From contig OZ024741.1 of NCBI GenBank assembly GCA_964016885.1, positions 202,430,001-202,494,000 of the forward strand: 64,000 bases of DNA. The letters are read 5' to 3'. Origin of the DNA: Eledone cirrhosa (Eukaryota). Below the pieces are notes generated by a model. That model was not told the origin of the DNA. It made no database searches and was given only the letters and a program-made list of their open reading frames with translations. Position numbers and translations under genes: made by a program. Positions 37,131 through 47,850 of the stretch are shown here, in pieces (position 1 is the stretch's first letter; every line of letters begins with the position of its first letter).

Positions 37131-39511
37131 AGTCTGAAACTTGACACATATAAAACTCGACCCGTAGATTGGAATAGGCTACTTGAAAGTTTCGAAAAAT
37201 CGATAATCGGGCCCCCAGAAGCCAAAAATCGATATTTTCAAAAATCGTCCGATTTCGATGAAACTCGACGCAAGTGTGTATTTTGATCCGGGGATGAACG
37301 TGGGCTACATTAAATTTTTGACAAATAGATAATTGGATCACCAGAGGCAAAAATCGATATTTACGAAATTTGTCCGATCCCAATGAAATTTGACGTAGGT
37401 ATGTATTTTGACGTAGGTATTTATTTTGATGCGGGGCTCAACGATAATCGGACCCCCAGAGGCAAAAATCGATATTTTCAGAATTCGTCCGATTTCAATG
37501 AAATTTGATATTACCACAATAATAGATCCATTAGGAGTTACTCGAAGGCTGCAAAATTTCAGAAAGTATTTTTAAACTCATAAATCATGCGTTAAATGAG
37601 ACCTTTAAGAGTTAGGGCAGACAATTATTCATAGTTTAATTATCAATGGCGCAATATCTTCTACCCTGGGGCCAATTCTCCATGCAGAGCCTTAAAGCAT
37701 CCCTTCGCGCTATCCCATTATCTATCAGCATCCCATTATCTATCAGCAACCGAAAAACGCCATTCTTCTTGCTTCCATTTGTCGCGACTCCCACCATACA
37801 AAAAACGTTCAATCTATCAGGATTAACCACCGTAAGTCTCTTTAAATTAACGCTCACCATATTCAGCAAACCTTTTATGCCGATTCTTCCATTTCTTATA
37901 TAAGGACTATCAAGACTATACCGCCGCGCATCATCCTGTATTGCGCCCACTTCTCAAGCGATCATCGAGCCTCCATGCGCTCTCTTCATTCCCGTGGTCC
38001 CACTACCGTAGCATAATGAGGCATCCGTCAACCCCTGCCCTCTCTGTATCACCATGTGCATCTCTGCCCTGTCAGCCGCAATTCCTTCCCCGGCCCTTTC
38101 CATTGCCATCCGTGGTCCCTAAGGACTGCCACGGCTCAACATGCCGAATCCCTGCCACCGACTACCCCTGCCCATTTCCATTGCCTACACTCCGGTAGAG
38201 CTCAAGACTTCCATGCCTGACCAAGCCGCATCCCTGCCACCGTCAACCCCTGCCCTCTCCGTTCCCTGCACGCCGTCGTCCCACTGCATCATCATGCCGC
38301 ATCAATGCTCTGTCAGCCGCCATCCCCTCCTCGGCCCTTTCTTTTACCTGCCCGCAATGCTCCTTCAAGACTGCCATGGCTCATCATGCGGCATCCTTGC
38401 CACAGTCCACCCCTGCCCTCTTCCTTGCCTGCTGGCCGTCGTCCCACTGCATCGTCATGCCTCAGGATGCCGCATCCATGCACTGTTAGCCACCATCCCC
38501 TCCTCGGCCCTTTCTTTTTCCTGACCGCCGTGCTCCTTCAAGACTCCCATGGCTATCTATGCTGCATCAATTCCTTGCCACCCGCTTAAACGTCATCAGC
38601 ATGGCTTATTGTTGCCCCATTTGACCACCGATTTTTCGCAGGCTAAACACAATACCAACGTGCACGATAGTCCATGGTAAATCTTTTTAATTACATGTTT
38701 ATCATGCTAAGCAAAGGATGAATAGCAACTCTTTCATTTCTCCTGACATGCCGTTCTGTCAATTATGGCCGAGAAGCATCCTGTGTAGCATCGCGTCTTC
38801 TCAAGCGATCAGCGTGCCTTCCACTGTCCTCACAATTGACTCACAACACCGCATCTATTCCCTGCAACGCCCCTGAACATCATCAGCATGGCTTCTTTTT
38901 CTGCCGCGTTTAACCGGCCCTCATTTTAGGCCATAAACAACAAAATCGCACGATGATGCTGCGTAAGTCTATTTAAATTAAAGGTCAACATGTTCAGCAA
39001 AACAATTGTACCAATTCTTCCTCTTCACCTCCAAGGCCTACCCATTCCATCTTAGAGGTCGGGATTCGCAATTTGTACGATTTCAATATTGACACAACAG
39101 TCCGTCAGGTTTTTCGGTACATGTTGCTCCGATAGGAGTATCAACGTAATTTTCACTTAATTTGTAAGTGTTCAGTCTTCCGTATGCTTTTATTTTTTAT
39201 TGATTCAACACCGACTACAATCATCTAACTTCACTTTGTAGGCTAGACGCGAATCACAAGGAAAACAATCCTCTGATATACAACCCCACCAAATTCTTTG
39301 GTCGGCCTAGATTTCAATGGCTATATCCTTTGCTTTTGTACGGTTGTACATTTGACAATGTCGCAAAACATTATTCCACTTGATTCCTACCTTTCAGCTA
39401 TGAATTGGGCAGTGCCTTAAAATCCCGGTTTATTTGCGTGCAATTTTTTGGTATCTTATGAATGGAGAATCGAAAACCCTTTTTCTCATAACCTGATACA
39501 TGCGTTATACA

Positions 39512-42151
39512 TATAACGGGTTTTAGGGTCAATTCTTAATATACATAATAGAGATCAGAAGGCATTTAGAACATTGACTAAATCCATTATCGATGTTGTA
39601 ACTCTATTTATTAGTCGTACATGTTGAACCGATACATTAGGTACAGGTCGTATCTACATGTGTAGGATGTAGTTTGGTCCGCTTCATTGCAAGATGGAGA
39701 TGTTGTTAGCAGCGATGAGTGTAGCCTGGTCTTGTCGATAAGAGAGGTGCGTGTAGACTAATGTCTCTCTTGGTCACCTCCGCTCACACTGGTGACGTAG
39801 TTCTGGACAGTCGAATTAGTGCACCGAAGGTTTCGATTGGCTCACACTTCAGCCAACTTACCTCCGTAACACCATTCCGCCGCAGAAGGAAAATACATTT
39901 TATTCACTGCTACATCACCCCCTGCTTAGGCTTACAGCCGACAGAGAAATAAGGGTAGCAGTTGAATGAAAGAAAAAGTACTATATAATAGTAAACACAA
40001 TAAAATATATCACTGATAAAGAAATGTTCATATTACAGGAAAGTCAGAAATAGTGTAATGTTCACCTTAGTTCATACATTTAATACAAATACAAGGGCGG
40101 AGCAAACTCCAAGAAGATTGCTGTAAATAACATAGTTCATATATAAAGAGTCTTGCAAAGCTTCTTGGGCCAATGTACCCGCCGACCGCTACGTGTGGTG
40201 GTGACATATGTAGGTGTGTGCGATGTTATATGTGTATTGTGGCTTGGCTGATGCCAGGTGTATGTGGGGGGAAAATGGGGCTCTTGTGTGAGAGTGTCTG
40301 TATAGGCCCGTTTTACCCTGTCAATGGACACAGTCTCTTTTTTACCCCCAATGTCTAGGGTGAATAGCTTATCTGTGCGCTCAAGCACGCGATAGGGACC
40401 GGTATAAGGTGGCATGAGAGGAGCTCTCACGGCGTCCTTTCGTAAAAAGACGTGGGTCCATGAAGCAATGTCTTTCGGGACCGAAGATTTGATTGTCTGT
40501 TGGCGAGGGTGCATAGGCGGAAGATTGCTGAAATATGATTGCAGTCTGCTCACATACAGAGCTGGGTCTGTTGCTGGTAGGTCCAATGGAGCTAACATCT
40601 GACCAGGCAGAGATATAGGCACTCCGTAAACCAACTCGGCGGGGGAGTAGCCTAGATCTTCCTTGATGGCTGCACGACAGCCCAGGAGGACAATTGGTAC
40701 ATATTCGCTCCACCGCTGCTGATCCGGATAAGCGCGCAGTGCGGCTTTCAATTGGCGGTGGAAGCGTTCAATCATTCCGTTAGAAGCTGGATGGTAGCTG
40801 GTCGTTCGAATGCGTTGCATTCCCAGGATCCTTGAAAGCTCTCGGAAAAGGTGTGACTCAAATTGTCCACCGCGGTCAGTGGTGATAGTGGCTGGAACTC
40901 CGTAACGCGATATCCAACCCGATACTAGAGCTCGCGCTACAGATTCCGCCGAAATGTCACTTAAAGGAATGGCTTCAGGCCAACGTGTGAAGCGATCTAT
41001 GCAGGTCAGGAGGTATGTAAATCCTCGGCTGACCGGCCATGGTCCGACAAGATCTATATGGACATGGCTGAACCTAGCGTCTGGAGTGCTGAAAGTTCCA
41101 AGGGGTGCGCGGATGTGTTTGTGCACCTTTGACTTTTGGCAGGATAGGCAGGAACGTGTCCAGGCAGTGATGTCACGCCTCATATTAGGCCAGAAGAATC
41201 TAGCCGAAATGAGCTTCACTGTGGTCGATATTCCAGGGTGTGCCAGACCGTGCAAGGTGTCGAAAACTGCTCGACGATGAGTCACTGGCACTAGAGGGCG
41301 AGGTGCATCTGTCGAGGTGTCGCAGATAATCTGTGTGTCCGAAGTGGGCACAGGCAGATATGCAAATTTGCCAGTTGCAAATTCAGAAGACGAGAGGTCC
41401 AAAGTATCCAGAGGTGGTTGTTCCGTGGCCATTCGTTGGAGGTCGATTTCCGCTGGCGATGACAGGGAATTAATTGGGAGGCGGGACAGTGCATCTGCCG
41501 CCGCATTCTGTTCACCAGAGATGTGTCGGATATCGCTGGTAAATTGCGAAACGAAGTCCAAGTGGCGAGTTTCGCGAGGTGAATATTTGTCCGGCTTAGA
41601 ACGCAGTGCGAACGTAAGCGGACGGTGGTCAGTGTATATAACAAATTGGCGACCCTCCAGTGAATGCCGAAAGTGTTTCACTGCAAGGTACATAGCCAAG
41701 AGTTCACGGCCGAATGTGCTATACCGTGTTTCTGCAGGCTTCACCATTTATAACGGGTTTTAGGGTCAATTCTTAATATACATAATAGAGATCAGAAGGC
41801 ATTTAGAACATTGACTAAATCCATTATCGATGTTGTAACTCTATTTATTAGTCGTACATGTTGAACGGATACATTAGGTACAGGTCGTATTTACATGTGT
41901 AGGATGTAGTTTGGTCCGCTTCATTGCAAGATGGAGATGTTGTTAGCAGCGATGAGTGTAGCCTGGTCTTGTCGATAAGAGAGGTGCGTGTAGACTAATG
42001 TCTCTCTTGGTCACCTCCGCTCACACTGGTGACGTAGTTCTGGACAGTCGAATTAGTGCACCGAAGGTTTCGATTGGCTCACACTTCAGCCAACTTACCT
42101 CCGTAACACCATTCCGCCGCAGAAGGAAAATACATTTTATTCACTGCTACA
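39512..42151 (-). mobile_element. Internally deleted Gypsy LTR retrotransposon, 2640 bp
   Basis: 403-bp LTRs 39512-39914 and 41749-42151 (2 differences seen by eye), termini TG...TA, TSD TACA (39508-39511, 42152-42155), PPT agcagggggtga, PBS remnant TGGTGA. Confidence 0.93.
40137..41747 (-). CDS. Uninterrupted 536-aa ORF: RNase H C-terminal part plus complete Gypsy integrase
   Basis: RELLA, TDH, ADALSR (RNase H); HGLAH...CLSC (HHCC); [24 protein letters not shown] (DDE); GPY motif. Confidence 0.92.
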
Positions 42152-43070
42152 TACATGCTCCATGGATGTTTGTGGACTATTTTTTCAAAATACCAATATC
42201 ACAGATTGGAGCACAAAAAGAAACGTTTGTTCTTCATTTATTTCGGTTAAAGCATCCTGCTGGAATTTAGCACAGACCCGTTTAAATCCAGCGCCTTATA
42301 ACCCCGAGTGTAACCGGGTACACCAGCTAGAAAGACAAATGGAAACATTGTTTCCTCGTTTGAGGAAACAATGTTTTGACGAAAGTCGATTTAGTTCAAC
42401 AACAAATTAACAAACCATACTTGAAGACACGTTGAGGCTGTTGCAAAGGGCAATAACCCTAGACACAATTTTGATCAACTTTTTTTCACCTATAGCAAAT
42501 TTACCGGGACAGGTTTTTAGCTACTCAAATCTACTTCAGAGGTCACGCATTCATGTAAAAAATCAATAAAACTAAAGCGGGGGTTCGACTTTGCGCAAAG
42601 AACAAGGCAAACTTGCACATAGGAAAACTTTTTACAGGAACGTCCGATTTTCTTGAAAACTGTCGCAAAAGACTCGCCATTATGCCTCAGTTCAGGTAAA
42701 GTCACTTTTATTTCTTCTTCTGCACATGCGAGGGCGAAAATTGAAAAAAAAGAAATGTGAAAAAATCGACTTTTTCACCCTGCTTTAAAAATCAACTGAA
42801 AATTCAATTTCAAGCGAATTTGACTTCTGTCAGTCGTGCAAAGAACAATTTCAACGATACACTGTGTACCTGCAATTGATCCATTATTTATGCTCAATTA
42901 CACACCTGTGTCTACTAACCACTGTTTTTTTTCCTTGAGGTTTGAAGGTTTTTGCACCTGTGATGCGCGGGAAGTAACTTTCACACATTTTAACAACAGA
43001 GCAAAGGTCGACTTACACCCGGGCAACGCCGGGTACTTCTGCTAGTATATTTATATAATTCAATCTATAT

Positions 43071-44190
43071 ATGAGGTGTGTCAGAAAATCAACAGGACTT
43101 AGTGTCCTGTGTGTTGTCTGAGCTATGAATGGGGTAGGGATTGTAGTCAGCAAAAAACACTACTTACCGCGGTGGAACAATTGGGTTGCGCTTGGTAAGT
43201 CGCCGGACCTGTAAGTCGGTGGTGTAGAAATACAAGGTACTTATTTCCACCCAGCAAACGAATTTGCGCCTTTTTTTACTTGAAAAACAGTTGCAGCTCT
43301 TTCTTTGGACAAACAGGACGTTATGTAAGTCCCTTCCCTGGAGCAACTGGCAAGATGTAGAACTTACCTAGAAACTTTGACCCTCTCGGCAAGGGCCCAA
43401 CTATATTTTTCCCTTATTTCAAATACATTTTTATTGTTCAACTTAATAATGTGGTATGCTACCAGCTTTTCAATCTCCTTGAGTTTATATTACGGAAGAA
43501 TATAAACATTTATCTATGTTTTAACAGCCTTCTGATAATTTCCGCCACCATTGAATCTTCACACAACTTAAAAATATTTCTTCTGAGATGATCTTTCAAC
43601 CAACTAAAATAGCCCATCTGCTAAAGGATTAGCAGGCTGTGTCACCATAGGACATAATATCCAGGGAATATATAACTCAGCTTTCTGCAGCCATTCTATG
43701 TTTTTCCACATGCTTTTGTTAACAGCTGCTCATTTTAGGCCATCAAGCAATGGGCACAGAGCAATAAACCAACCTGAAGTTTCCTGTCCGGCTGGGGAAA
43801 ACTCCACCAGAAGCACTTGGAATACTGCAGCAAATGTATAGAGGTGAAACAATGTCGTGCTCACGAGTTTTCCAGTGGCACAAAATGTTCAAAGAGGGAT
43901 GCGAGCTCATGGAAGATGACCCCAGAAGTGGAAGGCCTTCAACAAGCAGGACAGAGGACAAAATTGAGTGCTTGAAGCAGGTGGTGCATGGCGATTGTCA
44001 GTTGACTCTTCAACTGATTGTGTGCTGGGCATGAACCACAACAGCATTTGGAAGAATATTACTGAAGATTTGGGCATGTGGAAGATCTACACAAAAATAG
44101 TGATGAAGGTGCTGATTGATGACCAGAAGGAGTGGCACATGCAAGTGTGTTAGGACATCCTTGAGTATCTTGAAACTGATGAATTTAGTA
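43071..44190 (+). mobile_element. Mariner transposon remnant (TIR plus transposase N-terminus), interrupted
   Basis: atgaggtgtgtcagaaaa TIR-like start; LGKTPPEAL...VFQWHKMFKEGCELMEDDPRSGRPSTS at 43750-44190. Confidence 0.8.
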
Positions 44191-44894: not shown

Positions 44895-47850
44895 ACTGGT
44901 ATACACAGAAGCTATGGATTTGGCACAAGAAACAAGGATGGAACTAGGCCTCTGAAGTTCTGTGAGGATCTTGACTTAATAATCTGTAACACAACCTTCA
45001 AAAAAACCAGCCAACCACTTGCTTACCTACCAATTGGGAGGAAGAGGGCACAAGCAAAATAAACTTAATCCTCATCAGGAAATGACACAAACAAATGGTT
45101 GTTAATACAAAGTCCTTCCTAGGGAGGAGTGTACCTCCCAACATAGATTAGTTGTCAGTGATTTTAAAGTAAGGTCCAGGTGGACCAAGAGACAAAAGTC
45201 AGTTGGAAGCTAAGAGAACCCTATGTAGGTGACAAATTTAGGGAAATCTTTCTTAACACCTATGACAGTTAGGGACATATGACATGGAGAAAATTTGGGA
45301 ATTTCTACGGGACAACCTGCTGGAAGCCACAAGCCAGGTCTGCGCCTGGAGAATGGTCCTGCCAAGACAGAGGGTGACATGCTGGTGGAATGACAAGATA
45401 GAAACAGCCATTAAAATAAAAAGACAAACTTGGAGAAAATGGAGGAATGGAAGAGACAAAACAAGAAGGGAGGCTAGGCACTAAGTATATCTAGTGAGAG
45501 AAGAGGCAGAAAAAAAAAGTTTGCACATGTTCTGTGGTGAAGATCAGAGGCATGAACTGTATAGGATTGTGAAACAGTATGCTAGAGAAAATCGTGATGT
45601 GGTTGGAGAAAAGTGTGTTTGAAATGACAGTGGAGCACTTGCCCTGTCTGAAGCCACAAAGAAGGGGGTATGGAAGACATACTCTGAGAGACTGCTGAAG
45701 AAGGAAAATGAATGGGACAGTGAGGGCCTATCCCATGCTGACCCCACTGACTAGCAATAAAAGTTGACAGCAGTTTGATAAATAAAGCAATTAAGGACAT
45801 GAAGGTAGAAAAGCAGCTGGGCCATCTGGTATAGAAGCTGAAATGCTAAAAGCATCTGGCATGGTAGGATACGAGCTAGTCAGATGCATAGTTCATCAAG
45901 TAGTACAGGATGGTGTCACACCCAATGACTGATGCAGCAGTGTCATTGTAAATTGCTACAAAGGCAAAGGGGATGCACTAGAGAGAAGTAACTATAGAGG
46001 CATCAAGTTAATGGACCAAGGCATGAAAGTTACTGAAAGGGTTATAGCACAACTAATTAGGGAAACAAACAAATTAGATGAGATGCAGTTCAGATTTATG
46101 CCAGGTAGGGGTACTACTGATGCCCTCTTTCTAGTGAGACAACTACAGGAGAGATATTTAACTAAGAGTAAGCCACTGTATCTAACATTTGTTGATCTGG
46201 AGAAAGCCTTTGGCAGGATCCTCCACTCTGTAATCTGGTGGACAGTTAGGAAGCTAGGTGTAGATGAATGGCTTGTGAGGGCCATGAAGGCCATGTATAA
46301 AGGAGCAACCAGCAGAGTGAGAGGTGACAATAGGTACAGTGATGAATTTGAAGTGCAGATGGAGATCCACCTGGGATCAGTCCTCAGCCTACTCCTGTTT
46401 ATCATTGTACTTCAGGCCATCACTGAGAAGTTTAAAACTGGTGCTCCATGGGAGCTCCTTTATGCTGACAATCTAGTCCTCATAGCTGAATCAGCTGAAT
46501 CTGCAAGAGAGTTAGAAGAAATTTCAAGCACGGAAGAAAAACCTAGAGCTGAGGGGCCTAAAAGCAAAGATCAAAGTTTTAATAAATAGAAAAGAAGACA
46601 GGAAGGTGATACCATCAGGAAAGTGGCCTTGTTTGCTATGTCAGAAAGGATTGAGCAGAAATTCCATAAGGTGCTCACAATGTAAATTATGAACACAGGT
46701 GATTTAGTGGGATTGCAGGTAGACTAACGAAAATCTAGAATTTATATGTGACAGCTACTAGTGTGGTTCCATAGAAGTTGTTGGTAGCTTTCGCTACCTA
46801 GGCAATCAAATTAGTAGTGTGGGAGGATGTGCTGATTGTGTGATAGCTAGGATAAGAACAGACTGGAAGGAGTTTAGAGATCCATTACCACTACTAACAA
46901 CAAAATGCTTTTCTCTCAGAGTGAAGAGTAGACTGCATGATGCCTGTGTGTGAACTGCCATGCTGCATGGCTGTGAAACATGGGCCTTGACTGCAGAAGA
47001 CCTGCAGAGGCTAGAAAGAAATGAGTCAAGTATGCTCCATTGGATGTGAAATCTTAGTGGGCATGAGCGACATAGCATAAGCAAACTGAGGAATTGGATG
47101 TAGTGTGCAAGATAGAAGACTGAGTTGTGATAAGCATGGAAATTAGCAGCTGCATAAAGAAATGCAGAGATACCCTAGTGGCTGGGACCTGTGGAAGTGG
47201 TAGACCCAGGAATAGATGGGATGAGGTTGTGAAAACAAACCTTAAAAAACTACACTTCACAACAGAAATGACAAAAGACTGCGAAGGCTGGCGCTATGCA
47301 GAGCTGAGGAAGACCCGACCTACAGCATACAATGTGACCTGACCTATCGCCATGCTCCCCCAACAAACACTTTCCAATAGTTATCCTCAACAGCTCTACT
47401 TCAACCCCCATCGCCCATGCTCCCTCCATTCCCAGCAGCTTCCCCTTCCTGTGAAGCAGTTGGTGATGGGAAGGCCATTCAGCCATGGAGGGCTAAACAA
47501 ACAAACAAGACAAACAAAATGAAGGGTTGAGAGGACTCTTCAGTCATGTCAAAGACATGACAGCTTCCCTAGTGTTTATTGATCAACATGATAAATGCAG
47601 CCAGTACACACTGTAAAATGGTTGGTGATAGGAAGGCATTCAGCTGCAGAAATCTTGCCCAACAAAAGGGTTGGGAGAACCCACAGTTGTGTTAAAGACA
47701 TGACAAACTCTCTTGTGACTTGGTGGAGCATTGACTGTACATAAAGCAAGACACAGATCCCTGGCCTGCATGGGATATCAGTGGCTCTGTTTTAGTAATG
47801 ACCTGATCTATGTAGACCCGTCCAAGCCTTCCTAGCAGAGAAATCACCAT
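44895..47850 (+). mobile_element. Decayed RTE LINE (APE C-terminus, RT, C-terminus, 3' UTR)
   Basis: QFRFMPGRGTTDA, FVDLEKAF, LSLLLF, PWELLYADNL, GRPRNRWDEVV. Confidence 0.92.

What the first reader, a model, noticed from the sequence alone, without database searches (positions are those of the whole stretch)
39512..42151. Integrase-only mini Gypsy: PBS fused to RNase H creates a new start codon
Seen in sequence: two 403-bp LTRs (2 differences found by eye), a TACA TSD and a PPT. On the minus strand the 5' LTR is followed by AA-TGGTGA, which runs straight into AGCCTGCAGAAACA ([10 protein letters not shown]) of RNase H. Gag, protease, RT and the first RNase H Asp are absent. The spacer A plus the PBS TG form the ATG (41747) of a stop-free 536-aa ORF with complete HHCC, DDE and GPY integrase motifs, directly behind the LTR. 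Established: TGGTGA is how a tRNA-Trp PBS begins in CsRn1-type Gypsy elements. Inference: the junction uses TGA microhomology, as expected from aberrant plus-strand transfer during reverse transcription. The result is a potential LTR-driven stand-alone integrase, either a one-off or a non-autonomous family.
Basis: partly seen in the sequence, partly recalled or inferred. Interest (0 to 1): 0.75.

Follow-up and report, generated by a model that had tools for sequence, protein, structure and literature searches.

The report
Integrase-only retrotransposon copy, one-off deletion
This is a real, young jumping-gene copy that has lost its middle 3 kb, likely through a known kind of copying error, leaving an intact integrase reading frame behind a start codon that its relatives also carry; it occurs once in the genome and is predicted to be unable to copy itself again.

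Summary
The anatomy is as reported: two 403-bp LTRs (2 differences), TACA target duplication, PPT and a 536-aa RNase H-remnant/integrase frame. It is a deleted copy of a young CsRn1-clade Gypsy family (48 sites examined; full copies 5.7-5.9 kb). About 3.1 kb is missing between base 6 of the tRNA-Trp primer site and RNase H, joined at a 3-nt TGA microhomology. One claim fails: the ATG is not new. 17 of 17 two-LTR copies have it, opening a five-codon uORF; the deletion only put it in frame. The junction occurs once in the assembly, and raw reads of another animal appear to cross it, so it is neither a family nor an assembly error. Six of ten rearrangements in the family start inside the plus-strand strong-stop span (8% of the element, p about 4e-5), which favours a faulty second strand transfer, a mechanism described for HIV-1. 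With 6 of 18 primer bases left and no gag, the copy is likely a dead end. Expression is untested. A known kind of object; interest low.

The parts
42152..42155 (.). 4-bp target-site duplication (TACA on +), LTR-proximal 5' side
   Evidence: paralogues of the host repeat carry one copy
41749..42151 (-). 5' LTR, 403 bp, TG...TA; AATAAA at LTR position 303; 10 ATGs, all closed before the main ATG
41747..41748 (-). AA spacer between LTR and primer site; its second A starts the ATG, as in full-length copies
41741..41746 (-). remnant of the tRNA-Trp primer-binding site, 6 of 18 bases (TGGTGA)
41741..41743 (-). deletion junction: TGA shared by primer-site bases 4-6 and the RNase H acceptor; about 3.1 kb missing
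40137..41747 (-). 536-aa ORF: M-V, then the C-terminal part of RNase H, linker and whole integrase
41480..41743 (-). RNase H remnant lacking the DAS motif with the first catalytic Asp
41139..41252 (-). integrase HHCC zinc finger (H166 to C203)
40767..41054 (-). integrase catalytic triad D232, D291, E327
40392..40400 (-). GPY motif (residues 450-452)
39915..39927 (-). polypurine tract AAGCAGGGGGTGA
39512..39914 (-). 3' LTR, 403 bp
39508..39511 (.). 4-bp target-site duplication (TACA on +), 3' side
38219..39511 (.). left part of the high-copy host repeat into which the element inserted (not identified)
42152..43081 (.). right part of the same host repeat

Best explanation
This is a single, internally deleted copy of a young CsRn1-clade Ty3/Gypsy retrotransposon, likely made by a faulty second strand transfer during reverse transcription and predicted to be unable to move again. 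Shown: full copies read LTR-AA-TGGTGACCCCGACGTGAT, an 18-nt match to host tRNA-Trp; this copy keeps 6 bases and continues at a TGA inside RNase H, 3.1 kb further on, within an ordinary 4-bp target duplication. [quoted passage not shown] Both LTR ends were thus complete, the parent's integrase inserted the short DNA, and the unpaired rest of the primer-site copy was lost in repair. The join happened to keep the frame between an existing uORF ATG and pol. Inferred: with a 6-nt primer site, no leader and no gag, its RNA would not be primed or packaged, and any integrase made from it would not enter particles, so it would stay a neutral single-locus allele.
For: Junction anatomy against 17 full copies; 3-nt microhomology. 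tRNA-Trp genes end in the exact complement of the 18-nt site; computed duplex -39.9 kcal/mol for 18 nt, -13.5 for this copy. Junction 30-mer: 1 match in the assembly; 1 of 60 LTR-primer-site joints. Of 10 rearrangements bounded by target duplications among 48 family sites, 6 have their left breakpoint in the first 423 bases, the span of the strong-stop DNA; expected share 0.079, binomial p 3.8e-5; 5 of 9 without the 43-bp event, p 2.9e-4; 6 of 13 with three untidy truncations counted against, p 2.5e-4. None of the 10 cuts into the 3' LTR. L041 holds an inverted piece that starts at base 18 of the primer site, which points to reverse transcription. A sister-subfamily copy, L084, breaks in the primer site at the same TGAC. 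In HIV-1, 20 of 23 large 5' deletions began upstream of the PBS and were read as premature second-strand transfer (PMC12657518, passages read). The pol stretch is open in 32 of 41 siblings; this copy has 1 private change there, synonymous.
Against: Three bases of homology cannot by themselves tell reverse transcription from chromosomal end-joining. 4 of the 10 family rearrangements lie outside the strong-stop span (L087, L088, L089, L105), so other routes operate. The breakpoint test was set up after seeing the cases, and only copies with an intact PPT-LTR or LTR-primer-site joint were collected. A 9-nt primer-site variant stands at 4 sites, so a short primer site is not proven to be a dead end, although the tree points to repeated origin (at least 3 changes forced by well-supported branches; clustering no better than shuffles, 129 of 500; bootstrap unsettled). 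The four private or minority substitutions in the ORF are all synonymous, too few to test selection.
Confidence: 0.72

Rival explanations
1. A full-length copy inserted first and later lost 3.1 kb by microhomology-mediated end joining in the chromosome; the break fell in the primer site by chance. The outcome is the same dead-end allele.
For: A 3-nt microhomology fits end joining (established knowledge). The LTRs have 2 private differences, so there was time after insertion. Four sibling deletions lie elsewhere, with 0 to about 8 nt of homology.
Against: The primer site is 18 of about 5,360 bases. Family breakpoints cluster in the strong-stop span and none of 10 cuts into the 3' LTR; chromosomal deletion should be roughly symmetrical.
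Confidence: 0.14
2. Also during reverse transcription, but the growing minus strand jumped along the RNA from RNase H to the primer site and copied 6 bases of it before a normal-looking second transfer.
For: Minus-strand jumps at short repeats are the commonest source of internal deletions in HIV-1 (PMC12657518, passages). The product would be the same sequence.
Against: It cannot explain sibling joints that lie inside the 5' LTR at U3-side positions 6, about 28, 44 and 210, which are likely not on the 5' end of the RNA; one mechanism covering all is simpler. The primer site on the RNA is occupied by tRNA (established knowledge).
Confidence: 0.08
3. The copy works as an LTR-driven gene for a stand-alone integrase, an early stage of domestication.
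For: Complete HHCC, DDE and GPY motifs behind an ATG two bases after the LTR; G at +4; no upstream ORF overlaps the ATG; the allele appears in a second animal.
Against: The open frame is expected from youth (32 of 41 siblings open). About 13% of acceptor positions in one full copy would give an in-frame tail of 450 aa or more (611 of 4,709). Four ATGs lie between the LTR's AATAAA and the start; T at -3; no TATAAA in the LTR. It sits inside a high-copy repeat, and of 13 other long ORFs in the window scanned only one matched Pfam, an RT fragment.
Confidence: 0.04
4. It is the founder or a member of a non-autonomous integrase-only family moved by full-length helpers.
For: Both LTRs, the PPT and the target duplication are intact; young full-length relatives with open pol exist.
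Against: 1 match in the assembly; 1 of 60 LTR-primer-site joints; the other 39 of the 40 best matches all begin at the RNase H side of the junction; 6-nt primer site.
Confidence: 0.01
5. The junction is an assembly error.
For: Logan contigs of four runs show only the full-length continuations at the junction among the rows listed.
Against: Contigs drop rare variants. The depth table of raw-read run X11 is reproduced exactly by two reads running from the AATT at 41644 to the AATT at 41768-41771 across the junction; abutting reads from full copies would give 1.33 instead of the observed 1.0.
Confidence: 0.01

Closest known systems
CsRn1 clade of Ty3/Gypsy elements (PwRn1, AgCR1-14; PMC2582038, passages read)
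   Same: Parent family has a tRNA-Trp primer site, 4-bp target duplications, the CX2HX9CX3C gag motif and separate gag and pol frames.
   Different: This copy lacks gag, protease, RT, the leader and 12 of 18 primer-site bases. No RT tree against named CsRn1 elements was built.
Defective HIV-1 proviruses from premature or aberrant second-strand transfer (PMC12657518, passages read; related model in PMC9278108, passages read)
   Same: Large 5' deletions whose left end lies in the 5' LTR or primer-site region, with an intact 3' half, integrated normally; such proviruses can keep open frames.
   Different: Here the break lies within the primer site, in a germ-line retrotransposon. In PMC9278108 most asymmetric HIV-1 proviruses (24 of 26) had the 3' LTR damaged, the opposite bias to this family.
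Ginger1 DNA transposons and the Gin-1/Gin-2 genes (PMC2836005, passages read)
   Same: A Gypsy-type integrase with zinc finger, DDE and GPY/F as the only coding content; the paper lists 'reverse evolution' from a Gypsy element as one scenario.
   Different: Ginger has terminal inverted repeats; this element has direct LTRs whose ends are not inverted repeats (TGTAGC.. versus TATAAC..). Gin-1 and Gin-2 derive from Ginger1, not directly from Gypsy. The paper's route needs two opposed LTRs.
Non-autonomous LTR elements (TRIM, LARD, Cassandra; recalled, no paper read)
   Same: Short element with two LTRs, PPT and target duplication.
   Different: Those keep a usable primer site, carry little or no coding sequence and are multicopy; this one is single and has lost most of the primer site.

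Membership tests
CsRn1 clade (parent family) | primer-binding site complementary to tRNA-Trp | tested here: met
   18 contiguous bases match the 3' end of tRNA-Trp(CCA) genes in this genome; 6 remain in this copy
CsRn1 clade (parent family) | 4-bp target-site duplication | tested here: met
   TACA here; 4-bp duplications at 17 of 17 two-LTR copies
CsRn1 clade (parent family) | CHCC gag motif CX2HX9CX3C | tested here: met
   present in full copy L032 (one copy checked); deleted in this copy
CsRn1 clade (parent family) | RT phylogeny groups with CsRn1 | not tested
   no named CsRn1 RT sequences were fetched
Ty3/Gypsy | pol order RT, RNase H, integrase with GPY/F | tested here: met
   motif order in L032; best structure match Ty3 Gag-Pol, E 5.7e-33
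Non-autonomous LTR family | several insertions sharing the same deletion junction | tested here: not met
   1 match; 1 of 60 joints
Non-autonomous LTR family | usable primer-binding site | tested here: not met
   6 of 18 bases, computed duplex -13.5 against -39.9 kcal/mol; priming itself not assayed
Ginger DNA transposon | terminal inverted repeats | tested here: not met
   direct LTRs; ends not inverted repeats
Domesticated integrase gene | purifying selection on the frame | tested here: inconclusive
   1 private substitution (synonymous) in the ORF; 32 of 41 siblings are also open
Domesticated integrase gene | transcription and translation | not testable with these tools
   needs RNA and ribosome data from this species
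Premature second-strand-transfer deletion | left breakpoint within the strong-stop span, intact 3' half, normal integration | tested here: met
   breakpoint at element base 408-411, intact PPT, 3' LTR and TSD
Premature second-strand-transfer deletion | deletion present before integration | not testable with these tools
   only the family-level pattern supports it

The most novel reading that the evidence does not exclude
A single strand-transfer error turns a Gypsy element into an LTR-driven integrase gene, because the ATG hidden in the spacer and primer site of every CsRn1-type copy can capture pol in frame; this allele is transcribed and translated in the germ line, segregates in the population, and shows a one-step route to stand-alone integrases such as Ginger transposases.
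Probability: 0.06. Interest if true: 0.55.

Novelty: new member of a known kind. Interest (0 to 1): 0.2.

Why it matters
As a single locus it matters little: deleted LTR copies and faulty second-strand transfer are known. Two modest points remain. First, the family records reverse-transcription errors in the germ line at a notable rate: 9 of 48 sites carry a 5' rearrangement that starts in the strong-stop span, four of them at a second primer-like site 43 bp downstream that seems to act as a decoy. Second, the AA-TGG start of the primer site supplies a ready ATG right behind the LTR, so such errors can give start codons to pol fragments. If this one were expressed it would be a natural starting point for integrase domestication; nothing here shows that it is.

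Tried and rejected
Expression: the run search listed 13 runs with no RNA holder listed; this says nothing about expression. Logan contigs of X1, X3, X4, X5 and X2 list no piece bridging the junction, but 2,846 and 12 pieces were not shown and contigs drop rare variants; not used as evidence of absence. RAD runs X12 and X13 gave 1 read each, neither at the junction. The empty-site joint 39508 to 42153 in X1, X3 and X5 was rejected as proof of insertion polymorphism, because the flank is a repeat with 660 candidate copies; it only confirms the 4-bp duplication. dN/dS: one private change, no power. The first three hits of the tRNA pattern (L112-L114) held no tRNA gene; two clusters fetched afterwards did. 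In the tree, L041 was wrongly labelled as a 9-nt primer-site copy, so 5 of the 6 labelled rows are true ones (4 sites). L083 gave no match to the ruler copy and was dropped. Left out of the breakpoint count: 51-bp gag repeat-unit changes, 25-29-bp changes in the leader's A tract, insertions (L047, L049, L088), solo LTRs, and truncations without a matching target duplication (L074, L092, L094, L095; three of them added back in the 6-of-13 version). The 26 sister-subfamily loci were collected by their PPT only and were not used in the test. Paper searches for an integrase-only non-autonomous LTR family (2 unrelated listings) and for primer-site length limits in Ty3 (0) found nothing useful; I make no claim that the object is absent from print. 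An early retroviral-vector study of such deletions (Pulsinelli and Temin 1991) is recalled only, not read. Supplements were not opened.

Full report
1. Observation. The element runs from 42151 to 39512 on the minus strand. The LTRs are 403 bp and differ at 2 sites; each difference is private against 34 aligned LTR rows from 17 copies (one of the 34 rows, the 3' LTR of L037, was mis-cut by the script). TACA flanks both ends. The 5' LTR is followed by AA-TGGTGA and then RNase H sequence. The ORF 41747-40137 has 536 codons without a stop. Pfam gives a 5'-cut RT_RNaseH (residues 2-69, profile 40-105), Integrase_H2C2 and rve. The best solved relative is Ty3 Gag-Pol (E 5.7e-33). D232, D291, E327 and GPY450 are intact.

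2. The family. A search of the 3.0-Gb genome scored 40 of 1,487 candidates; the other 39 are 98-100% identical and all begin at element base 409. Of 20 fetched loci, 17 have two LTRs, are 5.7-5.9 kb long, have 4-bp target duplications and read LTR-AATGGTGACC. The 18-nt primer site matches the 3' end of tRNA-Trp(CCA) genes in this genome. One copy checked has the gag motif CX2HX9CX3C. These are the three features given for the CsRn1 clade in PMC2582038 (passages read). LTR pairs of 16 correctly cut siblings differ at 0-2 sites, so the family is young and this copy is of the same age class.

3. The junction. The donor reads TGG|TGA|CCCC, the acceptor AAACAGC|TGA|AGCC: three shared bases and no more. 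3,054-3,277 bases are missing, depending on the sibling, including 12 primer-site bases, the leader, gag, protease, RT and the RNase H DAS motif. The ATG is not made by the fusion. It stands in 17 of 17 two-LTR copies and opens MVTPT there. The deletion only joined it in frame; 611 of 4,709 acceptor positions in one full copy would have given an in-frame tail of 450 aa or more.

4. One copy, and real. The 30-base junction has 1 match in the assembly. Of 76 rows of a census of LTR ends, 60 are LTR-primer-site joints: 41 with the 18-nt site, 17 with a 9-nt site (4 loci, 14 in one array), 1 with 11 and this one with 6. In raw RAD reads of another sample (X11, sample S9, same species label as the best holder) depth is 1.0 in both mate classes from 41685 to 41765. 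The only AATT sites nearby are at 41644 and 41768, and a read between them reproduces the table bin for bin; two abutting reads from full copies would give 1.33 at the junction. So 2 of 5 reads laid appear to cross the junction. This is inferred from the depth table, not from printed reads, and rests on one of three RAD runs; the other two had no read there. Contigs of four runs list only full-length continuations, which cannot show absence.

5. Mechanism. I fetched 48 insertion sites of the close family, found by their LTR-primer-site or PPT-LTR joint. Ten rearrangements lie within intact target duplications. [quoted passage not shown] Four lie elsewhere (L087, L088, L089, L105). None cuts the 3' LTR. 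With an expected share of 0.079, p is 3.8e-5; 2.9e-4 without the 43-bp event; 2.5e-4 with three truncations counted against. The test is post hoc and the collection favours copies with one intact joint. In a sister subfamily (about 83% identical, 26 loci) L084 breaks in the primer site at TGAC and lands 68 bases before gag, and L053 joins a nearly whole LTR to integrase, with an ATG at the joint and a 271-aa frame. PMC12657518 (passages read) describes premature second-strand transfer in HIV-1, with 20 of 23 large 5' deletions starting upstream of the PBS. The best reading is that a stalled minus strand paired through TGA with the strong-stop DNA, completed the LTR, and was integrated. This step is inferred. 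Deletion after insertion remains possible (0.14), and a minus-strand jump onto the primer site gives the same sequence (0.08).

6. What it does. Likely nothing. The computed tRNA duplex falls from -39.9 to -13.5 kcal/mol, and the leader, where packaging signals usually lie (established knowledge, not tested), is gone. Integrase normally reaches the cDNA as part of Gag-Pol in particles (established knowledge), so a free integrase would not serve the family. The open frame needs no selection: 32 of 41 siblings are open over the same stretch, and this copy has one private, synonymous change. Ten ATGs lie in the 5' LTR, four of them after the AATAAA at 303, so likely in any LTR transcript; all close before the main ATG, which has T at -3 and G at +4. 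Translation is thus neither favoured nor excluded. Against a firm 'dead end': the 9-nt primer-site variant occurs at 4 loci. The tree suggests it arose repeatedly (at least 3 changes forced by starred branches; 129 of 500 shuffles as low; bootstrap unsettled; one row mislabelled), but recombination between copies could blur this. The element sits in a high-copy repeat (660 candidates, best 39 at 93-96%).

7. Comparison. The parent meets three CsRn1 features; the RT tree was not tested. The copy fails two tests for a non-autonomous family and the inverted-repeat test for Ginger. PMC2836005 (passages read) lists a Gypsy origin of Ginger1 as one scenario and suggests two opposed LTRs as a route; this element has direct LTRs. 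Earlier AI notes on this genome report other reverse-transcription accidents in CsRn1-like elements; they agree but are not independent support.

8. Verdict. Observation right except for the 'new' start codon; mechanism likely right; family refuted; function unshown. New member of a known kind, interest 0.2.

Noticed in passing
G000:C3:346964800-347039700 (L097, L098): Head-to-tail array of 14 full-length units sharing LTRs, about 75 kb, all with the 9-nt primer site, inside one TAAG target duplication.
   Followed up: partly
L032 element bases 400-460 and most full copies: The leader repeats TATAAATGGTGACC 43 bp after the true primer site; a deletion between the two repeats is found at 4 loci and seems to arise repeatedly, as if the second site were a decoy for strand transfer.
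   Followed up: partly
L041:887-1000 (G000:C2:87933100): 5' end made of LTR bases 1-44, an inverted piece starting exactly at primer-site base 18 and running into U5, then the normal internal sequence; CATG target duplication.
   Followed up: partly
L076:4918-5611 (G000:C1267:124400): About 700-bp copy: first LTR bases, inverted primer site (11 nt) and U5, then 3' UTR, PPT and LTR; CTAT target duplication.
   Followed up: partly
L053 (G000:C1:236656800-236658850): Sister-subfamily mini element of about 2 kb, LTR joined to integrase with an ATG at the joint and a 271-aa frame lacking the two zinc-finger His; GATC target duplication.
   Followed up: partly
L068:3034-3085 (oriented as): Sister copy whose truncated 5' LTR is followed by a near-perfect 36-bp palindrome before the jump into the internal sequence.
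   Followed up: no
L090, L056, L055: A 51-bp repeat in gag varies in number between copies, with an expansion of 1,122 bp in L090 and over 2 kb in sister copy L056.
   Followed up: no
L032 leader, just before the gag ATG: A pyrimidine tract ending in CAG lies 8 bases before the gag ATG; it looks like a splice acceptor, so gag may be reached by splicing out the AUG-rich leader (read; untested).
   Followed up: no
L112:1501-1523: Read on the minus strand, a primer site with 24 bases complementary to tRNA-Trp, past the usual 18; 115 pattern hits mix such sites with true tRNA genes.
   Followed up: no
G000:C4:353394900-353486300: Cluster of over 40 pattern hits; 5 tRNA-Trp(CCA) genes in the 7 kb that was scanned.
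   Followed up: partly
window 38219-39511 and 42152-43081: Unidentified high-copy repeat of at least 2.2 kb with internal 80-170-bp repeats; no Pfam test of its own frames, no clear terminal inverted repeats in two paralogues.
   Followed up: partly
window 45933-46589: 218-aa reverse transcriptase fragment (RVT_1, E 1e-18) on the plus strand; its element was not worked out.
   Followed up: no
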